Below are positions 59,368 through 60,457 of a DNA stretch of 64,000 bases, in pieces. This stretch comes from a virus. The stretch covers positions 72,829 to 136,828 of IMG/VR virus record IMGVR_UViG_3300014039_000016; one strand, 5' to 3'. The position numbers and the translations under genes are program-made. The notes under the pieces are model-generated. The model saw only the letters and a list, made by a program, of their open reading frames with translations, had not been told where the DNA came from and did no database searches. Within the stretch, counting starts at the first letter, position 1. Every line of letters starts with the position of its first letter.

Positions 59368-59400
59368 TAGGGGAGGTGAGATTCGAACTCACTCAGCCCT
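59368..59400 (-). ncRNA. orphan tRNA 3' half (T-arm plus 3' acceptor strand)
   Basis: GTGAG-TTCGAAT-CTCAC followed by CTCCCCT-A. No D or anticodon arm follows on the 5' side. Confidence 0.45.
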
Positions 59401-59523
59401 AATTAACAATCATATACCTTATTACTAAGATAAGTATTAAAACCAATGGCGACCTGGCACCTTAACCAAATTCTTTAAAGGAGGAATGTACCTTGTACTA
59501 CCTACCATTTATTTTATATAAAT

Positions 59524-59553
59524 ATTATATCATAATTTTTTAATTATTTCAAA
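59524..59553 (-). promoter_or_regulatory. sigma-70-type promoter
   Basis: attatatcata...ttcaaa. Confidence 0.5.
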
Positions 59554-60244
59554 TTTTTTCCCATTCTGCATCAGAATAAGAATTTATATCTTTTTTCCTT
59601 GAAGGTAAACCTTCTGCTTCGCACCATTTAGAAATAGATTTATCACTAACTCCATATTGTGTTGCAATAGTAGTGAAAGGAATTGTTCTAATTAAATTTT
59701 TTAATTCTTCTCTTGAAGGTCTTTCAACTCTTCTTTGTTTCTTATTAGTGCAAGAAACGCATAAACCAGAATTATTTCTTTTCCCAAGAATTTTACCACA
59801 TTCAGTACAATATTTTACTTCTTTTTCTGTATGTTGAATTTTAGAAATATATTCAGTATCTATATTATCCACTCTAAAACATTGCCTATCGGGACCAAGA
59901 TTCAAAGTTCTTTCTGTAATAATTTCTTCAATAGGAATTTCATATAATTCTTGTTTTTCTGTTACTACAAATAATATGTCTATATTAGTATCTTTTACTG
60001 TTTTATATACTTTTCCAAATGTTCCCCCAGAAGATGCTACATTAACAGTAGTATATCCATAATCACTTCGTTGTCCAGTTGCTTTTACTTGTACCTTTAA
60101 TAATTTTTCTCCATTATCAACAATTAAATCATAATCTTGAGTATCATTTAAAGGTAAAGAAATTGTATATCCTTTAAAACCATAATATGCAATTGCCGCA
60201 ACTAATCCTGAATTTCCTTTTTCCTTATTTGTTGTAAAAACCAT
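59549..60244 (-). CDS. homing-endonuclease-like DNA-binding protein (shares the C-terminal module of the HNH paralogues)
   Basis: C-terminal RPSREELKNLIRTIPFTTIATQYGVSDKSISKWCEAEGLPSRKKDINSYSDAEWEKI and a zinc ribbon CTECG...CVSC. The N-terminal domain differs. Confidence 0.5.
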   Translation of the reverse strand: MVFTTNKEKGNSGLVAAIAYYGFKGYTISLPLNDTQDYDLIVDNGEKLLKVQVKATGQRSDYGYTTVNVASSGGTFGKVYKTVKDTNIDILFVVTEKQELYEIPIEEIITERTLNLGPDRQCFRVDNIDTEYISKIQHTEKEVKYCTECGKILGKRNNSGLCVSCTNKKQRRVERPSREELKNLIRTIPFTTIATQYGVSDKSISKWCEAEGLPSRKKDINSYSDAEWEKI

Positions 60245-60328
60245 AATATTATTCTCCTTTATTTATCTTGATACTATAATTCAAAATTAAATAAAGATTT
60301 TTTATCATTTTCGACCAAAAAATCGAAG

Positions 60329-60412
60329 TGGGCAGAGAGGGTAATGCTCCCACTCGAACCAAATGGTAGGTGTTTTACAGACACCCCTGTCTCTTTAACA
60401 GATTACCTGCCC
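60329..60412 (-). tRNA. tRNA-Tyr(GUA)-like, class II length, with a non-canonical T-loop
   Basis: Acceptor GGGCAGG/TCTGCCC, D-stem CTGT/ACAG, anticodon arm GGTGT-CTGTAAA-ACACC and variable hairpin CCA-TT-TGG. The T-arm is GTGGG-AGCATTA-CCCTC with one mismatch. Confidence 0.4.
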
Positions 60413-60457
60413 ATATTATATCAGACACATCCGACTCTCCAACTTCGGCGCTCCCCT
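60413..60457 (-). ncRNA. orphan tRNA 5' half (acceptor strand, D-arm, start of anticodon arm)
   Basis: AGGGGAG-CG-CCGA-AGTTGGAGAG-TCGG-A-TGTGT-CTGATAT. Lies 5 nt after tRNA-Met. Its acceptor strand is exactly complementary to the 3' half at 59368-59400. Confidence 0.45.

What the first reader, a model, noticed from the sequence alone, without database searches (positions are those of the whole stretch)
59368..60457. tRNA gene apparently split into 5' and 3' halves about 1 kb apart, flanking an endonuclease-like ORF and a tRNA-Tyr-like element
A canonical tRNA 5' portion sits at 60413-60457 on the minus strand. It has acceptor strand AGGGGAG and D-arm CCGA-AGTTGGAGAG-TCGG, and runs into an anticodon stem/loop reading TGTGT-CTGATAT. 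It lies only 5 nt after tRNA-Met(CAU), the normal spacing in this array. It then stops. The only sequence in the window that can close its acceptor stem is an orphan 3' half at 59368-59400: T-arm GTGAG-TTCGAAT-CTCAC followed by CTCCCCT-A. That gives 7 of 7 Watson-Crick pairs at about 1 kb distance. Between the halves lie a non-canonical tRNA-Tyr(GUA)-like element (60329-60412) and a 231-aa ORF (59549-60244). The ORF shares the C-terminal DNA-binding tail of the window's HNH homing-endonuclease paralogues. A consensus promoter (59524-59553) lies inside the interval. There are three candidate explanations. One is a tRNA gene containing a large intron or intein-like insertion that carries a homing-endonuclease gene. 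Another is a tRNA gene disrupted by invasion of a free-standing endonuclease cassette. The third is a recombination scar. The anticodon stem does not re-form by simply joining the halves, so any splice would be at a non-obvious site.
Basis: seen in the sequence. Interest (0 to 1): 0.72.

Follow-up and report, generated by a model that had tools for sequence, protein, structure and literature searches.

The report
Endonuclease cassette splits phage tRNA-Tyr gene
A phage's tyrosine-tRNA gene was broken in two by a 1-kb mobile cassette carrying a DNA-cutting enzyme and its own oddly shaped replacement tyrosine tRNA; this is a gene disruption with a built-in spare part, not an intron.

Summary
The two "halves" (60457-60431 and 59399-59368, minus strand) are the ends of one tRNA-Tyr(GUA) gene. 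Sister phage contigs carry that gene intact at the same place, after the same tRNA-Met and before the same downstream flank. In the window, 25 nt (anticodon arm plus the 5' side of the variable arm) are replaced by 1,031 bp.

It cannot be an intron:
- The missing 25 nt occur nowhere in the window.
- Rfam finds no group I or II fold.
- ARAGORN, allowing introns up to 1,500 nt, joins nothing.

The insert is a mobile cassette. It holds a covariation-supported but non-canonical tRNA-Tyr(GUA) with T-loop AGCAUUA. It also holds a free-standing PD-(D/E)XK endonuclease of the I-Ssp6803I family, fused to a Zn-ribbon/HTH tail shared with the window's HNH endonucleases. The same cassette lies in remnants of other tRNA-Tyr alleles in unrelated flanks. 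In all 12 loci examined, the endonuclease sits within 86 nt of a tRNA-Tyr gene.

Two further tRNA genes in this window (Asp, Gln) are disrupted by HNH cassettes. The Asp insert has a conserved tRNA-like frame and deserves its own study.

Verdict: a new variant of the known "free-standing homing endonuclease in a phage tRNA cluster" theme (T4 SegB).

The parts
60462..60537 (-). tRNA-Met(CAU). This is the upstream neighbour and anchor, not part of the cassette.
   Evidence: ARAGORN. Rfam tRNA model, 63.1 bits. The same gene precedes the intact tRNA-Tyr in L001 and L003.
60431..60457 (-). 5' remnant of the resident tRNA-Tyr(GUA): acceptor 5' strand AGGGGAG, then CG, then D arm CCGA-AGTTGGAGAG-TCGG (27 nt).
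   Evidence: 27/27 identical to the intact gene in L001 and L003.
59400..60430 (-). The 1,031-bp insertion as a whole. It replaces 25 nt of the intact allele (GGCGGTCTGTAAAACCGTTGCCTTC: position 26, the anticodon arm and the 5' side of the variable arm).
   Evidence: BLAST collinearity of L001 and L003 with the window. Three-way alignment. The 25-mer is absent from the window at up to 3 mismatches.
60418..60430 (-). Junction segment ATGTGTCTGATAT, absent from the L026 and L032 copies. It may be a remnant (position 26, stem TGTGT, loop CUG up to G34) of another tRNA-Tyr allele carried over from the donor. It overlaps a TGATATAAT extended -10-like match (60423-60415).
   Evidence: Alignment of window against L026 and against L032/L033. 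A promoter role is doubtful, because a start site would fall inside the tRNA (inference).
60328..60412 (-). Cargo tRNA-Tyr(GUA), here called 'Tyr*'. It is class II, with a 3-bp D stem and a conserved U.U in the T stem. The T loop is AGCATTA (60348-60342) instead of TTCRANY, and the D loop is TTAAAGAGA, without GG. The discriminator is A at 60329.
   Evidence: ARAGORN. No Rfam tRNA hit even at E<=10. Cloverleaf covariation on 10 homologues: 94.3% of cells paired, 19 of 23 pairs with compensatory changes, 0 of 500 shuffles reaching the observed values.
60245..60327 (-). Spacer between Tyr* and the ORF. It holds the inverted repeat TTCGA-N8-TCGAA (60327-60310), the motif TGGTCGAA (60317-60310) and the ribosome-binding site AAGGAG.
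   Evidence: Sequence. The spacer is conserved in L026, L032 and L014, and TGGTC(G/A)AA lies 62-68 nt upstream of the start codon of all three endonuclease ORFs of the window.
59549..60244 (-). Free-standing endonuclease gene, 231 aa. Its N-terminal domain is a PD-(D/E)XK nuclease of the I-Ssp6803I family (residues ~6-115). A CxxC...CxxC zinc ribbon follows (~146-168), then an HTH tail (~178-231).
   Evidence: Pfam PF11645, E = 5e-17. PDB 2OST by sequence, E = 1.2e-3. PDB 2OST by fold, E = 1.8e-8, TM 0.65-0.70. D39, Q52 and K54 are invariant in 30 homologues. The tail is 49% identical to HNH ORF 58784-58041.
59524..59552 (-). Promoter-like site TTGAAA-17-TATAAT with an upstream TG, overlapping the ORF stop codon. 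It is one copy of a roughly 35-nt promoter repeat scattered over this phage family.
   Evidence: Promoter scan, 11/12. At least 8 further copies in the window and copies in L001, L003, L025 and L034.
59400..59523 (-). 3' segment of the cassette, function unknown. It is found only in the window and in L026/L027.
   Evidence: BLAST against all loci held. The RNA fold is not better than shuffles, z = -0.04.
59368..59399 (-). 3' remnant of the resident tRNA-Tyr: 3' side of the variable arm GGGCTGA, T arm GTGAG-TTCGAAT-CTCAC, acceptor 3' strand CTCCCCT and discriminator A (32 nt).
   Evidence: 32/32 identical to the intact gene in L001 and L003, with the same downstream flank.

Best explanation
A roughly 1.03-kb mobile cassette has been copied into the phage's resident tRNA-Tyr(GUA) gene. 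It replaced the anticodon arm and half of the variable arm. The 27-nt 5' end and the 32-nt 3' end remain as dead remnants.

The cassette consists of:
- a divergent but structurally conserved tRNA-Tyr(GUA) gene;
- a free-standing homing-endonuclease gene, with an I-Ssp6803I-type PD-(D/E)XK nuclease domain fused to a Zn-ribbon/HTH DNA-binding module;
- a phage-type promoter.

Proposed mechanism, of the 'intronless homing' type. In a mixed infection the endonuclease cuts cassette-free tRNA-Tyr alleles in or near the anticodon and variable-arm region. The break is repaired from the cassette-bearing genome, using the conserved ends of the tRNA gene and the flanks as homology. The endonuclease gene and its linked tRNA are then copied in. 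The insertion destroys the target site. The cargo tRNA-Tyr differs from the resident allele at nearly every position outside the anticodon loop, so it is presumably not cut. It is the only tRNA-Tyr(GUA) gene ARAGORN finds in this 64-kb window, so it presumably supplies the function the disrupted gene no longer can.

Shown here:
- the insertion/deletion polymorphism against sister genomes;
- recurrence of the cassette in other tRNA-Tyr remnants;
- family, fold and catalytic motif of the protein;
- covariation of the cargo tRNA;
- the tight linkage between the endonuclease and tRNA-Tyr.

Inferred: actual cleavage of tRNA-Tyr DNA, the cut position, immunity of the cargo tRNA gene, and aminoacylation and use of the cargo tRNA.
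For: (1) Empty site. L001 and L003 (two IMG/VR contigs of about 145 kb) carry an uninterrupted tRNA-Tyr(gta) at the same place. It lies 5 nt after the same tRNA-Met. The flanks are 97% and 91% identical to the window.

(2) The window has 1,031 bp where the sister has 25 nt. Both remnants are 100% identical to the intact gene.

(3) The same cassette, 91-95% identical, lies in L026/L027 and L032/L033 between remnants of different tRNA-Tyr alleles. The outer flanks there are unrelated. In L026 the acceptor and D stems differ from the window by five compensatory pairs. L013 (ORF 79% identical) also has 5' and 3' tRNA-Tyr remnants.

(4) The ORF.
- PF11645, E = 5e-17.
- The best PDB relative by sequence and by fold is I-Ssp6803I, entry 2OST.
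- The AF2 model has pLDDT 87.
- The D...QxK motif is invariant.

(5) In 12 of 12 loci with a homologue (ORF identity 42-93% for the full-length homologues; L024 carries a shorter ORF whose identity was not measured), a tRNA-Tyr(GUA) gene lies within 86 nt of the ORF, upstream or downstream.

(6) The cargo tRNA cloverleaf is supported by 19 of 23 compensatory pairs. It keeps G34-U35-A36, A37 and discriminator A73.

(7) Relative to the same sister genome, two more tRNA genes in this window are disrupted by HNH endonuclease cassettes carrying the same C-terminal tail. tRNA-Asp is split at G34|U35. tRNA-Gln is truncated after nt 26, and a replacement tRNA(UUG) is linked to the HNH gene.

(8) Precedent: T4 SegB, a free-standing homing endonuclease in a tRNA cluster. 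It cuts tRNA genes and drags neighbouring tRNA genes along (PMC2330249). SegB is also reported to act on a genomic segment containing the tRNA-Tyr gene (PMC13096335).
Against: - No biochemical evidence that this protein cuts DNA, or cuts tRNA-Tyr genes. Its target is inferred only from context.
- The 5' junctions differ between copies. After the D arm the window has 13 extra nt, L026 has 1 and L032 has 8. The insertions are therefore not all simple precise homing products, and some illegitimate events or later decay must be assumed.
- The homology arms offered by the tRNA ends are short (27 and 32 nt).
- In several relatives (L014, L017, L021, L028, L031) the endonuclease sits beside an ordinary-looking tRNA-Tyr, and no disrupted second copy was recognised where the flanks were examined (L014, L017, L021). 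Disruption of a resident gene is therefore not obligatory.
- The cargo tRNA fails the Rfam tRNA model and lacks the universal T54-Psi55 and G18. Its function in translation is not proven.
- Other tRNA-Tyr genes may exist outside the 64-kb window.
Confidence: 0.78

Rival explanations
1. The 1-kb insert is an intron (group I, group II or protein-spliced). It is removed from the transcript so that the two halves are joined into a working tRNA.
For: The ORF family (PF11645) includes I-Ssp6803I, which is encoded in a group I intron of a tRNA gene (PMC3984707). The acceptor, D and T arms of the halves are intact. Group I introns in bacterial tRNA anticodon loops are known, including in tRNA-Asp and tRNA-Asn at 35/36 (PMC13011429).
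Against: - 25 nt, including the whole anticodon arm, are missing relative to the intact allele. They are absent from the window at up to 3 mismatches. No splice could rebuild a tRNA.
- Rfam finds no intron family at E<=10 in 58800-61000 on either strand.
- ARAGORN allowing introns up to 1,500 nt joins nothing.
- Other copies of the cassette have lost one half (L032/L033) or have truncated or decayed remnants (L013; L026 has a T-stem mismatch and a lost variable-stem pairing).
Confidence: 0.03
2. The retained halves are not mere scars. They form a selected tRNA-like frame (acceptor stem, D arm and T arm) around the cassette. RNase P and RNase Z could then excise the cassette transcript cleanly from the polycistronic tRNA precursor. 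The HNH inserts of the same phages seem to work this way.
For: The topology matches the HNH element that splits tRNA-Asp in this window and in five other loci: acceptor 5' strand and D arm, then cargo, then T arm and acceptor 3' strand. The tRNA-like frame of that element shows 96 of 96 cells paired and 9 of 16 pairs with compensatory changes. The window and L026 halves of tRNA-Tyr differ by five compensatory pairs.
Against: - The window's halves are identical to the sister genome's intact gene, so their integrity needs no selection. The insertion is simply recent.
- L032/L033 lack the 3' half, and their 5' remnant has a broken D stem. The L013 5' remnant is truncated and does not match its 3' remnant. 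L026 has an A.C mismatch in the T stem.
- Compensatory differences between alleles are expected if each was a working tRNA before invasion.
Confidence: 0.1
3. This is a plain recombination scar. The segment was shuffled in by recombination between tRNA genes or between the roughly 35-nt promoter repeats. The PD-(D/E)XK protein played no part and may have another role, for example a defence, repair or RNA-processing nuclease.
For: The phage promoter repeat occurs at the cassette's 3' part and at many other sites. In L032 the cassette ends at such a promoter. The tRNA array is a mosaic with many indels between sister genomes. The PD-(D/E)XK superfamily contains many enzymes that are not homing endonucleases (one search lists Hjc, SPARDA nucleases and EcoRV; PMC3424549).
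Against: - The ORF is linked to tRNA-Tyr in 12 of 12 loci across a wide range of ORF divergence.
- Its closest solved relative is a tRNA-gene-specific homing endonuclease.
- It shares a DNA-binding tail and upstream region with HNH endonuclease genes that also sit in disrupted tRNA genes of the same window.
- Presence/absence polymorphism between near-identical genomes is the hallmark of homing endonuclease genes (PMC2330249).
Confidence: 0.09

Closest known systems
T4 SegB (GIY-YIG free-standing homing endonuclease in the T4 tRNA gene cluster)
   Same: It is a free-standing endonuclease gene embedded in a phage tRNA array and absent from close relatives. It cuts within tRNA genes of the endonuclease-less phage, and the neighbouring tRNA genes are co-inherited (PMC2330249). 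In phage T6, SegB amplifies a genomic segment containing the tRNA-Tyr gene, which counters a defence that cleaves tRNA-Tyr (PMC13096335). The modular build is also similar: a nuclease domain plus a separate DNA-binding part.
   Different: The nuclease fold differs (PD-(D/E)XK here, GIY-YIG in SegB). Here the cassette sits inside the disrupted target gene and carries an isoacceptor of that very gene. SegB recognises the T-psi-C motif and cuts at tRNA 3' ends. Here the lesion is at the anticodon and variable arms, and the cut site is unknown.
I-Ssp6803I (PD-(D/E)XK homing endonuclease of Synechocystis, PDB 2OST)
   Same: Same Pfam family (PF11645). It is the best sequence and fold match, and the D...QxK motif is conserved. 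Its target is the anticodon region of a tRNA gene (title of reference 105 in PMC3984707).
   Different: I-Ssp6803I is about 150 aa, acts as a tetramer, has no extra DNA-binding domain and is encoded inside a self-splicing group I intron (PMC3384342). The window's protein is 231 aa with a Zn-ribbon/HTH tail. It is free-standing, and no intron surrounds it. Sequence identity is only about 25%.
Phage T5 F-TflI/II/IV endonucleases and other free-standing endonuclease genes in tRNA clusters
   Same: Their ORFs lie in a phage tRNA gene cluster and are mentioned as analogues of SegB (PMC2330249, Discussion). The window's HNH paralogues (58784-58041 and 47028-46261) fit this picture.
   Different: Their details are recalled from the literature only and were not tested here. 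To my knowledge no linked replacement tRNA and no PD-(D/E)XK domain has been described for them.
Genes split by an endonuclease gene without an intron (phage Aeh1 nrdA split by mobE; from memory, Friedrich et al. 2007)
   Same: A free-standing endonuclease gene inserted directly into a gene, leaving two pieces.
   Different: There the two protein pieces still assemble into a working enzyme. Here the tRNA pieces cannot, because the anticodon arm is missing. Function is instead supplied by a second, complete gene carried in the cassette.
Split tRNA genes of Nanoarchaeum equitans (from memory, Randau et al. 2005)
   Same: 5' and 3' tRNA halves encoded apart, with a complementary acceptor stem.
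   Different: Those halves together contain the whole tRNA and carry complementary leaders for trans-splicing. Here 25 nt are missing relative to the intact allele, and no such leaders are seen. This is a resemblance only, not membership.

Membership tests
PD-(D/E)XK homing endonucleases of the I-Ssp6803I family (Pfam PF11645) | Significant match to the family profile, above the curated cut-off | tested here: met
   62.7 bits against a cut-off of 26.1, E = 5e-17, residues 6-114.
PD-(D/E)XK homing endonucleases of the I-Ssp6803I family (Pfam PF11645) | Restriction-endonuclease-like fold closest to I-Ssp6803I | tested here: met
   AF2 model with pLDDT 87.4. Foldseek top four hits are 2OST chains A-D, E = 1.8e-8 to 1.8e-7, TM(target) 0.64-0.70.
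PD-(D/E)XK homing endonucleases of the I-Ssp6803I family (Pfam PF11645) | Conserved catalytic motif (acidic residue ... Q/E-x-K) | tested here: met
   D39, Q52 and K54 are invariant in 30 homologues and align with YDL...QVK of 2OST. The assignment of catalytic roles is from memory of the I-Ssp6803I structure paper, which could not be read.
PD-(D/E)XK homing endonucleases of the I-Ssp6803I family (Pfam PF11645) | Site-specific cleavage of the endonuclease-free allele | not testable with these tools
   Needs an in vitro cleavage assay.
Group I (or II) intron in a tRNA gene | Recognisable ribozyme core | tested here: not met
   No intron family at E<=10 in 58800-61000, both strands.
Group I (or II) intron in a tRNA gene | Exons that together make the complete gene | tested here: not met
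   25 nt of the intact allele are missing and absent from the window. ARAGORN with introns up to 1,500 nt finds no joined tRNA.
Free-standing homing endonuclease gene ('intronless homing', SegB type) | Presence/absence polymorphism between closely related genomes, with an intact target allele in the endonuclease-less genome | tested here: met
   L001 and L003 against the window.
Free-standing homing endonuclease gene ('intronless homing', SegB type) | The endonuclease gene lies next to, or in, a homologue of its presumed target that differs in sequence | tested here: met
   A tRNA-Tyr(GUA) lies within 86 nt of the ORF in 12 of 12 loci. The cargo tRNA differs from the resident allele throughout the stems.
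Free-standing homing endonuclease gene ('intronless homing', SegB type) | Endonuclease-dependent preferential inheritance in mixed infection | not testable with these tools
   Needs phage crosses.
Canonical elongator tRNA (for the cargo tRNA-Tyr at 60412-60328) | Cloverleaf maintained by compensatory changes | tested here: met
   94.3% of cells paired, 19 of 23 pairs compensatory, 0 of 500 shuffles reaching the observed values, slid controls 45-52%.
Canonical elongator tRNA (for the cargo tRNA-Tyr at 60412-60328) | Conserved T loop (T54-Psi55-C56...A58) and G18-G19 in the D loop; match to the Rfam tRNA model | tested here: not met
   The T loop is AGCATTA and the D loop is TTAAAGAGA. There is no RF00005 hit at E<=10 and none for the L013 or L024 copies at E<=0.1.
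Canonical elongator tRNA (for the cargo tRNA-Tyr at 60412-60328) | Tyr identity elements (G34-U35-A36, A73, long variable arm; listed from memory) | tested here: met
   The anticodon loop CTGTAAA is invariant apart from C32 (T in L025). Discriminator A and a 3-bp variable stem are present in all copies.
Split tRNA genes (Nanoarchaeum type) | The two halves together encode the full tRNA and are joined in trans | tested here: not met
   The anticodon arm is missing. Other copies of the cassette lack one half.

The most novel reading that the evidence does not exclude
The cassette may be a self-contained 'gene-replacement' homing element. Its PD-(D/E)XK endonuclease would destroy ordinary phage tRNA-Tyr genes and install a tRNA-Tyr with a re-wired elbow: A54:U58 in place of T54:A58, and A18:G55 in place of G18:Psi55. 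That tRNA would still be charged and used, but would escape nucleases or modification-dependent recognition aimed at normal tRNA-Tyr, for example Septu/PtuAB-type defences. A selfish endonuclease would then be spreading an anti-defence tRNA.

A related reading concerns the tRNA-like frames around these endonuclease genes, which are clear for the HNH inserts at position 34|35 of tRNA-Asp, Glu and Lys. They may be processing signals that let RNase P and RNase Z cut the cassette out of tRNA precursors. The resulting ends could then be joined by an RNA ligase, giving a protein-dependent, ribozyme-free tRNA 'intron' in phages.
Probability: 0.15. Interest if true: 0.8.

Novelty: new variant of a known kind. 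Interest (0 to 1): 0.52.

Why it matters
- It settles what an apparent 'split tRNA' is. The two pieces are the footprint of a homing-endonuclease cassette, not a new kind of tRNA gene organisation.
- It extends the PD-(D/E)XK homing-endonuclease family, for which the one characterised member found here is the intron-encoded I-Ssp6803I. The extension is a large, metagenome-wide group of free-standing phage enzymes (1,109 homologues). They have a modular DNA-binding tail that is exchanged with HNH nucleases.
- It shows a tidy way for a selfish element to insert into a gene without an intron: it brings a spare copy of the gene.
- The spare copy is a tRNA whose universally conserved elbow contacts have been swapped in a compensated way. 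This is of interest for tRNA structure, modification and recognition, and for the current question of how phage tRNAs evade tRNA-targeting defences.
- Three tRNA genes are hit by such cassettes in one window. Phage tRNA arrays therefore look like safe landing pads for these elements.

Tried and rejected
- Group I/II intron: Rfam E-value scans of 58800-61000, of 57900-59000 and of seven related loci found no intron family.
- Intron-aware tRNA search: ARAGORN -i up to 1,500 nt found nothing that joins the halves.
- The missing 25 nt of the tRNA were searched for elsewhere in the window with up to 3 mismatches. There were 0 hits.
- Annotated relatives: blastn of the locus and of another 8 kb of the window against 50,697 phage records gave only weak hits (Bacillus phage pW2 for the C-terminal tail; uncultured huge phages). 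No named relative was found (one search failed on query length).
- Exact-motif scans for the odd T arm (GAGTGGGAGCATTACCCTC) gave 0 hits in viral contigs and 0 in genome contigs. Metagenome contigs gave 3.
- Viral-contig search with the ORF found only one weak relative. The useful contexts came from the protein database.
- A promoter for the cargo tRNA at the 5' junction (TGATATAAT, 60423-60415) was rejected as unlikely. A start site would fall inside the tRNA, and the L026 and L032 copies lack the match.
- I tested whether the altered T loop is what makes the cargo tRNA gene immune to the endonuclease (by analogy with SegB, which recognises GGTTCRANTCC). This is not supported as a general rule. 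Endonuclease-linked tRNA-Tyr genes in L014, L017, L028 and L031 keep canonical T loops, and AGCATTA-type tRNAs occur without an adjacent endonuclease in L023 and L025.
- The 3' segment of the cassette (59515-59400) was tested as a structured RNA. The fold is no better than shuffles.
- The I-Ssp6803I structure paper (PMC1864971) is not held. Statements about its catalytic residues therefore rest on the alignment and on memory.
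Full report
**1. What is in the sequence**

On the minus strand the order is as follows:
- tRNA-Met(CAU), 60537-60462
- a 5-nt spacer
- a 27-nt piece, AGGGGAG-CG-CCGA-AGTTGGAGAG-TCGG (60457-60431)
- 13 nt, ATGTGTCTGATAT (60430-60418)
- AATAT
- an 85-nt gene that ARAGORN calls tRNA-Tyr(gta) (60412-60328)
- an 83-nt spacer
- a 231-aa ORF (60244-59549)
- a near-consensus promoter overlapping its stop codon (59552-59524, 11/12 with an upstream TG)
- 124 nt of unassigned sequence
- a 32-nt piece, GGGCTGA-GTGAG-TTCGAAT-CTCAC-CTCCCCT-A (59399-59368)

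**2. The two pieces are the ends of one tRNA-Tyr gene**

An exact search with the 27-mer in viral contigs returned five loci. In two of them, L001 and L003, the 27-mer continues without interruption into a complete gene. These loci come from two IMG/VR contigs of about 145 kb.

- Intact gene in L001 and L003: AGGGGAGCGCCGAAGTTGGAGAGTCGG-GGCGGTCTGTAAAACCGTTGCCTTC-GGGCTGAGTGAGTTCGAATCTCACCTCCCCTA.
- ARAGORN calls it tRNA-Tyr(gta), 85 nt.
- It lies 5 nt after the same tRNA-Met and is followed by the same downstream sequence.

BLAST shows that L001 is collinear with the window. L001 5788-6427 matches window 61066-60431 at 97.4%. L001 6450-6957 matches window 59402-58887 at 91%.

A three-way alignment fixes the difference. 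The 25 nt of the sister genome are position 26, the anticodon arm and the 5' strand of the variable stem. In the window they are replaced by 1,031 bp (60430-59400). Both remnants are identical to the intact gene. The tRNA is Tyr, not Ile.

**3. It is not an intron**

- The deleted 25-mer is found nowhere in the window, even with three mismatches. No splice could rebuild an anticodon arm.
- Rfam, run permissively at E<=10 over 58800-61000 on both strands, matches only tRNA-Met. It finds no group I or II intron or small ribozyme.
- ARAGORN allowing anticodon-loop introns of up to 1,500 nt finds no tRNA that joins the halves.
- In other copies of the cassette one half is missing or the remnants are decayed (section 5).

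**4. The ORF is a homing-endonuclease relative**

- Pfam gives PF11645 (PDDEXK_5), E = 5e-17, for residues 6-114. Weak zinc-ribbon and HTH matches follow.
- By sequence, the only significant solved relative is 2OST, I-Ssp6803I.
- An AlphaFold model built on 30 homologues has pLDDT 87.4.
- Its four best PDB matches are the four chains of I-Ssp6803I: E = 1.8e-8, TM 0.64-0.70, about 25% identity. SPARDA nucleases and archaeal Hjc come next.
- D39, Q52 and K54 are invariant in the family and align with the YDL...QVK segment of I-Ssp6803I.

[quoted passage not shown] The window's protein differs in two ways. It is free-standing. It also carries a C-terminal module of about 90 aa (CxxC...CxxC plus HTH) that is 49% identical to the tail of the HNH ORF at 58784-58041. 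A third ORF, at 47028-46261, has HNH-type motifs visible in its translation and ends in the same kind of tail (read from the sequence). So different nuclease heads share one DNA-binding tail, in the modular style of I-TevI and SegB (PMC2330249).

**5. The cassette is mobile and targets tRNA-Tyr**

The protein has 1,109 database homologues. I fetched contexts for twelve loci.

- L026/L027 (ORF 93% identical). The whole cassette, from AATATGGGCAGG to GATTGTTAAYTA, is 91-95% identical to the window's. It is again flanked by a 5' piece and a 3' piece of a tRNA-Tyr, but of a different allele. The D stem is CCAG/CTGG instead of CCGA/TCGG, and the acceptor is GGGGAGG/CCTCCTC. Beyond the pieces the flanks are unrelated to the window.
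- L032/L033 (88-89%). The same cassette follows a decayed 5' remnant (GGGGAGCGCCAAAGCTGAAGAGTTGC...). There is no 3' remnant, and the cassette ends at a promoter repeat in front of another tRNA.
- L013 (79%). A truncated 5' remnant (GAGGCGCCGA) is present, and a 3' remnant (GGTGTGAGTTCGAGTCTCACCCCTTCTA) overlaps the ORF stop codon.
- Across all twelve loci a tRNA-Tyr(GUA) gene lies within 86 nt of the ORF. It is upstream with an 82-86-nt spacer, or 5-13 nt downstream. The full-length ORFs are 42-93% identical to the window's; L024 carries a shorter ORF whose identity was not measured.

This linkage, together with the empty site, is the signature of a free-standing homing endonuclease with a tRNA-Tyr gene as its home.

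**6. The 'tRNA-Tyr-like element' is a real, conserved, non-canonical tRNA**

Ten homologues were aligned: seven with the window's type of T arm and three canonical relatives that also lie next to the endonuclease. They support a class II cloverleaf.

- 94.3% of cells are paired, and 19 of 23 pairs show compensatory changes.
- None of 500 shuffles reach the observed values, and slid controls give 45-52%.
- The anticodon loop CUGUAAA is conserved apart from C32 (U in L025). Discriminator A and a 3-bp variable stem are present in all.

Yet the Rfam tRNA model does not score it. Its T loop is AGCAUUA instead of UUCRANY, and its D loop is UUAAAGAGA instead of UUAAGGAGA.

The changes are correlated. 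Read against the usual numbering (my assignment):
- T54:A58 becomes A54:U58.
- G18:U55 becomes A18:G55.
- G19:C56 is kept.
- L021 is an intermediate, with T loop UGCGAUU and D loop UAAAGUAG.

The same AGCAUUA loop occurs in a second, class I tRNA in L023. Other swapped T loops occur in these phages' tRNAs. I conclude that it is a working tRNA lineage with a re-wired elbow. Charging and use in translation are inferred, not shown. It is the only tRNA-Tyr that ARAGORN finds in the window.

**7. How it most likely works**

This matches 'intronless homing' as described for T4 SegB. SegB is a free-standing endonuclease gene in a tRNA cluster, absent from close relatives. It cuts tRNA genes of the endonuclease-less phage, and its gene is inherited together with the neighbouring tRNA genes (PMC2330249).

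Here the endonuclease would cut cassette-free tRNA-Tyr alleles. Repair from the cassette-bearing genome copies in the endonuclease gene and its linked tRNA. The insertion and deletion remove the target. The cargo tRNA, which differs from the resident allele in all stems, replaces the lost function.

[quoted passage not shown] The 13-nt junction piece A-TGTGT-CUG may be the start of another allele's anticodon arm, retained up to G34. That is the same 34|35 position at which the window's tRNA-Asp is split (section 8). None of this has been tested biochemically.

Because the junctions differ between copies, some events were not clean homing.

**8. The same thing happened twice more in this window**

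Both cases are read against the same sister genome.

(a) tRNA-Asp(GUC) is split exactly between G34 and U35 by an 868-bp insert carrying the HNH ORF. The halves are at 58921-58887 and 58018-57980, and the insert is 58886-58019.

(b) tRNA-Gln(UUG) is truncated after nt 26 (47144-47119). A 949-bp insert (47118-46170) follows, carrying another HNH ORF directly followed by an 84-nt, long-variable-arm tRNA with the same UUG anticodon. This second case again pairs an endonuclease gene with a replacement tRNA.

All three endonuclease ORFs have TGGTC(G/A)AA 62-68 nt upstream of their start codon. Exact TGGTCGAA occurs only three times in the 64-kb window.

**9. A side finding that deserves its own look**

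Relatives of the tRNA-Asp insert sit at the same loop position in several other loci. These are another tRNA-Asp (L036), tRNA-Glu (L038, L042 and probably L041) and, as a 66-nt ORF-less mini version, tRNA-Lys (L025).

The insert is itself framed by a tRNA-like scaffold.
- Its first 7 nt pair with its end like an acceptor stem.
- They are followed by TA and a D arm.
- The ORF stop codon lies in a T stem.
- With the ORF removed, 96 of 96 cells pair and 9 of 16 pairs are compensatory. None of 500 shuffles reach the observed values.
- No Rfam intron model matches. The junctions do not fit group I rules, because the last exon nucleotide is G (Asp loci) or U (Glu and Lys loci) and the last insert nucleotide is A, T or C, never G. 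They also differ from the 35/36 group I introns of Patescibacteria (PMC13011429).

The 5' junction coincides with the +1 position of the inner acceptor stem in all six copies. RNase P and RNase Z processing of the insert is therefore an attractive idea, but it is untested.

This raised the rival idea that the tRNA-Tyr halves are a selected frame too. The decayed or missing halves in L013 and L032, and the identity of the window's halves to an intact sister gene, argue against it for the Tyr cassette.

**10. Verdict**

- The intron reading is rejected.
- The 'invasion by a free-standing endonuclease cassette' reading is supported and sharpened.

It is a new variant of a known kind. The new elements are a phage PD-(D/E)XK (I-Ssp6803I-family) free-standing endonuclease with a swappable DNA-binding tail, a cargo isoacceptor that replaces the gene it destroys, and the compensated non-canonical elbow of that cargo tRNA.

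Noticed in passing
window 57980-58921 (minus strand); also L036, L038, L041, L042 and L025: tRNA-Asp(GUC) is split exactly between G34 and U35 by an 868-bp insert (58886-58019) carrying HNH ORF 58784-58041. The sister genomes have the intact gene. Relatives of this insert occupy the same loop position in tRNA-Asp, tRNA-Glu and tRNA-Lys genes elsewhere, including a 66-nt ORF-less version. The insert is framed by a covarying tRNA-like scaffold of acceptor stem, D arm and T arm: 96 of 96 cells paired and 9 of 16 pairs compensatory. No group I or II model matches. It may be cut out by RNase P and RNase Z; whether the tRNA is re-joined is unknown.
   Followed up: partly
window 46170-47144 (minus strand): An orphan 5' fragment of tRNA-Gln(UUG) (47144-47119) is followed by a 949-bp insert. 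The insert holds an HNH ORF (47028-46261) and, 1 nt after its stop codon, an 84-nt tRNA with anticodon UUG. That tRNA has a long variable arm, a 3-bp D stem and discriminator G, which is a class II shape unusual for tRNA-Gln. Sister contig L034 has an ordinary 72-nt tRNA-Gln there.
   Followed up: partly
window 60342-60348 and 60390-60398 (T loop and D loop of the cargo tRNA-Tyr); L008, L013, L021, L023, L024, L025, L026: The tRNA elbow shows correlated changes. T loop AGCAUUA goes with D loop UAAAGAG, against UUCGAUU with UAAGGAG in relatives. L021 is intermediate (UGCGAUU with UAAAGUAG). This suggests A18:G55 and A54:U58 in place of G18:Psi55 and T54:A58. Other phage tRNAs in the fetched loci also have swapped T loops, for example ATCGTTA in the L008 tRNA-Phe.
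   Followed up: partly
window 45720-45801 and 61287-61368: ARAGORN calls two 82-nt tRNA-Cys(GCA) genes. This is about 8 nt longer than usual, which implies a long variable arm. A similar gene is seen in L034.
   Followed up: no
window 60310-60317, 58852-58859 and 47090-47097 (minus strand): The motif TGGTC(G/A)AA lies 62-68 nt upstream of the start codon of all three endonuclease ORFs that share the C-terminal tail. The exact 8-mer occurs only three times in 64 kb. It is also conserved upstream of homologous ORFs in L014, L021, L026, L028 and L032. It could be an operator or regulatory site, and it resembles the T-loop motif GGTTCGAA.
   Followed up: partly
window 61060-61100 (minus strand): An orphan T arm plus acceptor 3' strand (GTCGGGTTCAAATCCCGAC-TACAACT-A) has no matching 5' half nearby. 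It lies at a breakpoint of collinearity with L001 (window 61066). L003 has a tRNA-Met at the corresponding place.
   Followed up: no
window 59508-59555, 61839-61897, 62078-62129, 62952-62999, 47366-47415 and others: A roughly 35-50-nt repeat contains a strong promoter (AAAAATTATGATATAATATTTATATAA). It is scattered through the window and its relatives (L001, L003, L025, L034). One copy lies inside the cassette, and in L032 the cassette ends at such a repeat, so it may be a recombination substrate.
   Followed up: partly
window 63167-63457 (minus strand); L017 2719-3036; L021 7139-7453: Small ORFs with the cREC_REC domain (PF20274, 'cyclic-phosphate processing receiver') lie inside the tRNA arrays. 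This hints at an RNA-repair or processing function linked to the arrays.
   Followed up: no
L013 443-565: A tRNA-Lys(UUU)-like gene has an AT-rich insertion of about 46 nt in the anticodon loop. The Rfam tRNA model spans it at 58.5 bits over 118 nt.
   Followed up: no
L008-L012, L021/L022, L028-L030: The endonuclease ORFs in these contigs contain in-frame TAG codons, and the tool reports 'translates_to_query: no'. L021 also has a tRNA with anticodon CUA. These phages probably read TAG as a sense codon.
   Followed up: no
L021 2790-3367; L021 4732-4835; L014 974-1078; L042 2470-2580: A ROOL RNA (313 bits) and weak Y-RNA-like (YrlA) matches lie inside the tRNA arrays of related phages.
   Followed up: no
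L014 3037-3100: Immediately after a short (141-aa) PDDEXK_5 ORF (L014 2611-3036) lies an orphan T arm plus acceptor 3' strand (CCTTG-TTCAAGT-CAAGG-TATAGGC-A). The short, I-Ssp6803I-sized family members may also sit in broken tRNA genes.
   Followed up: no
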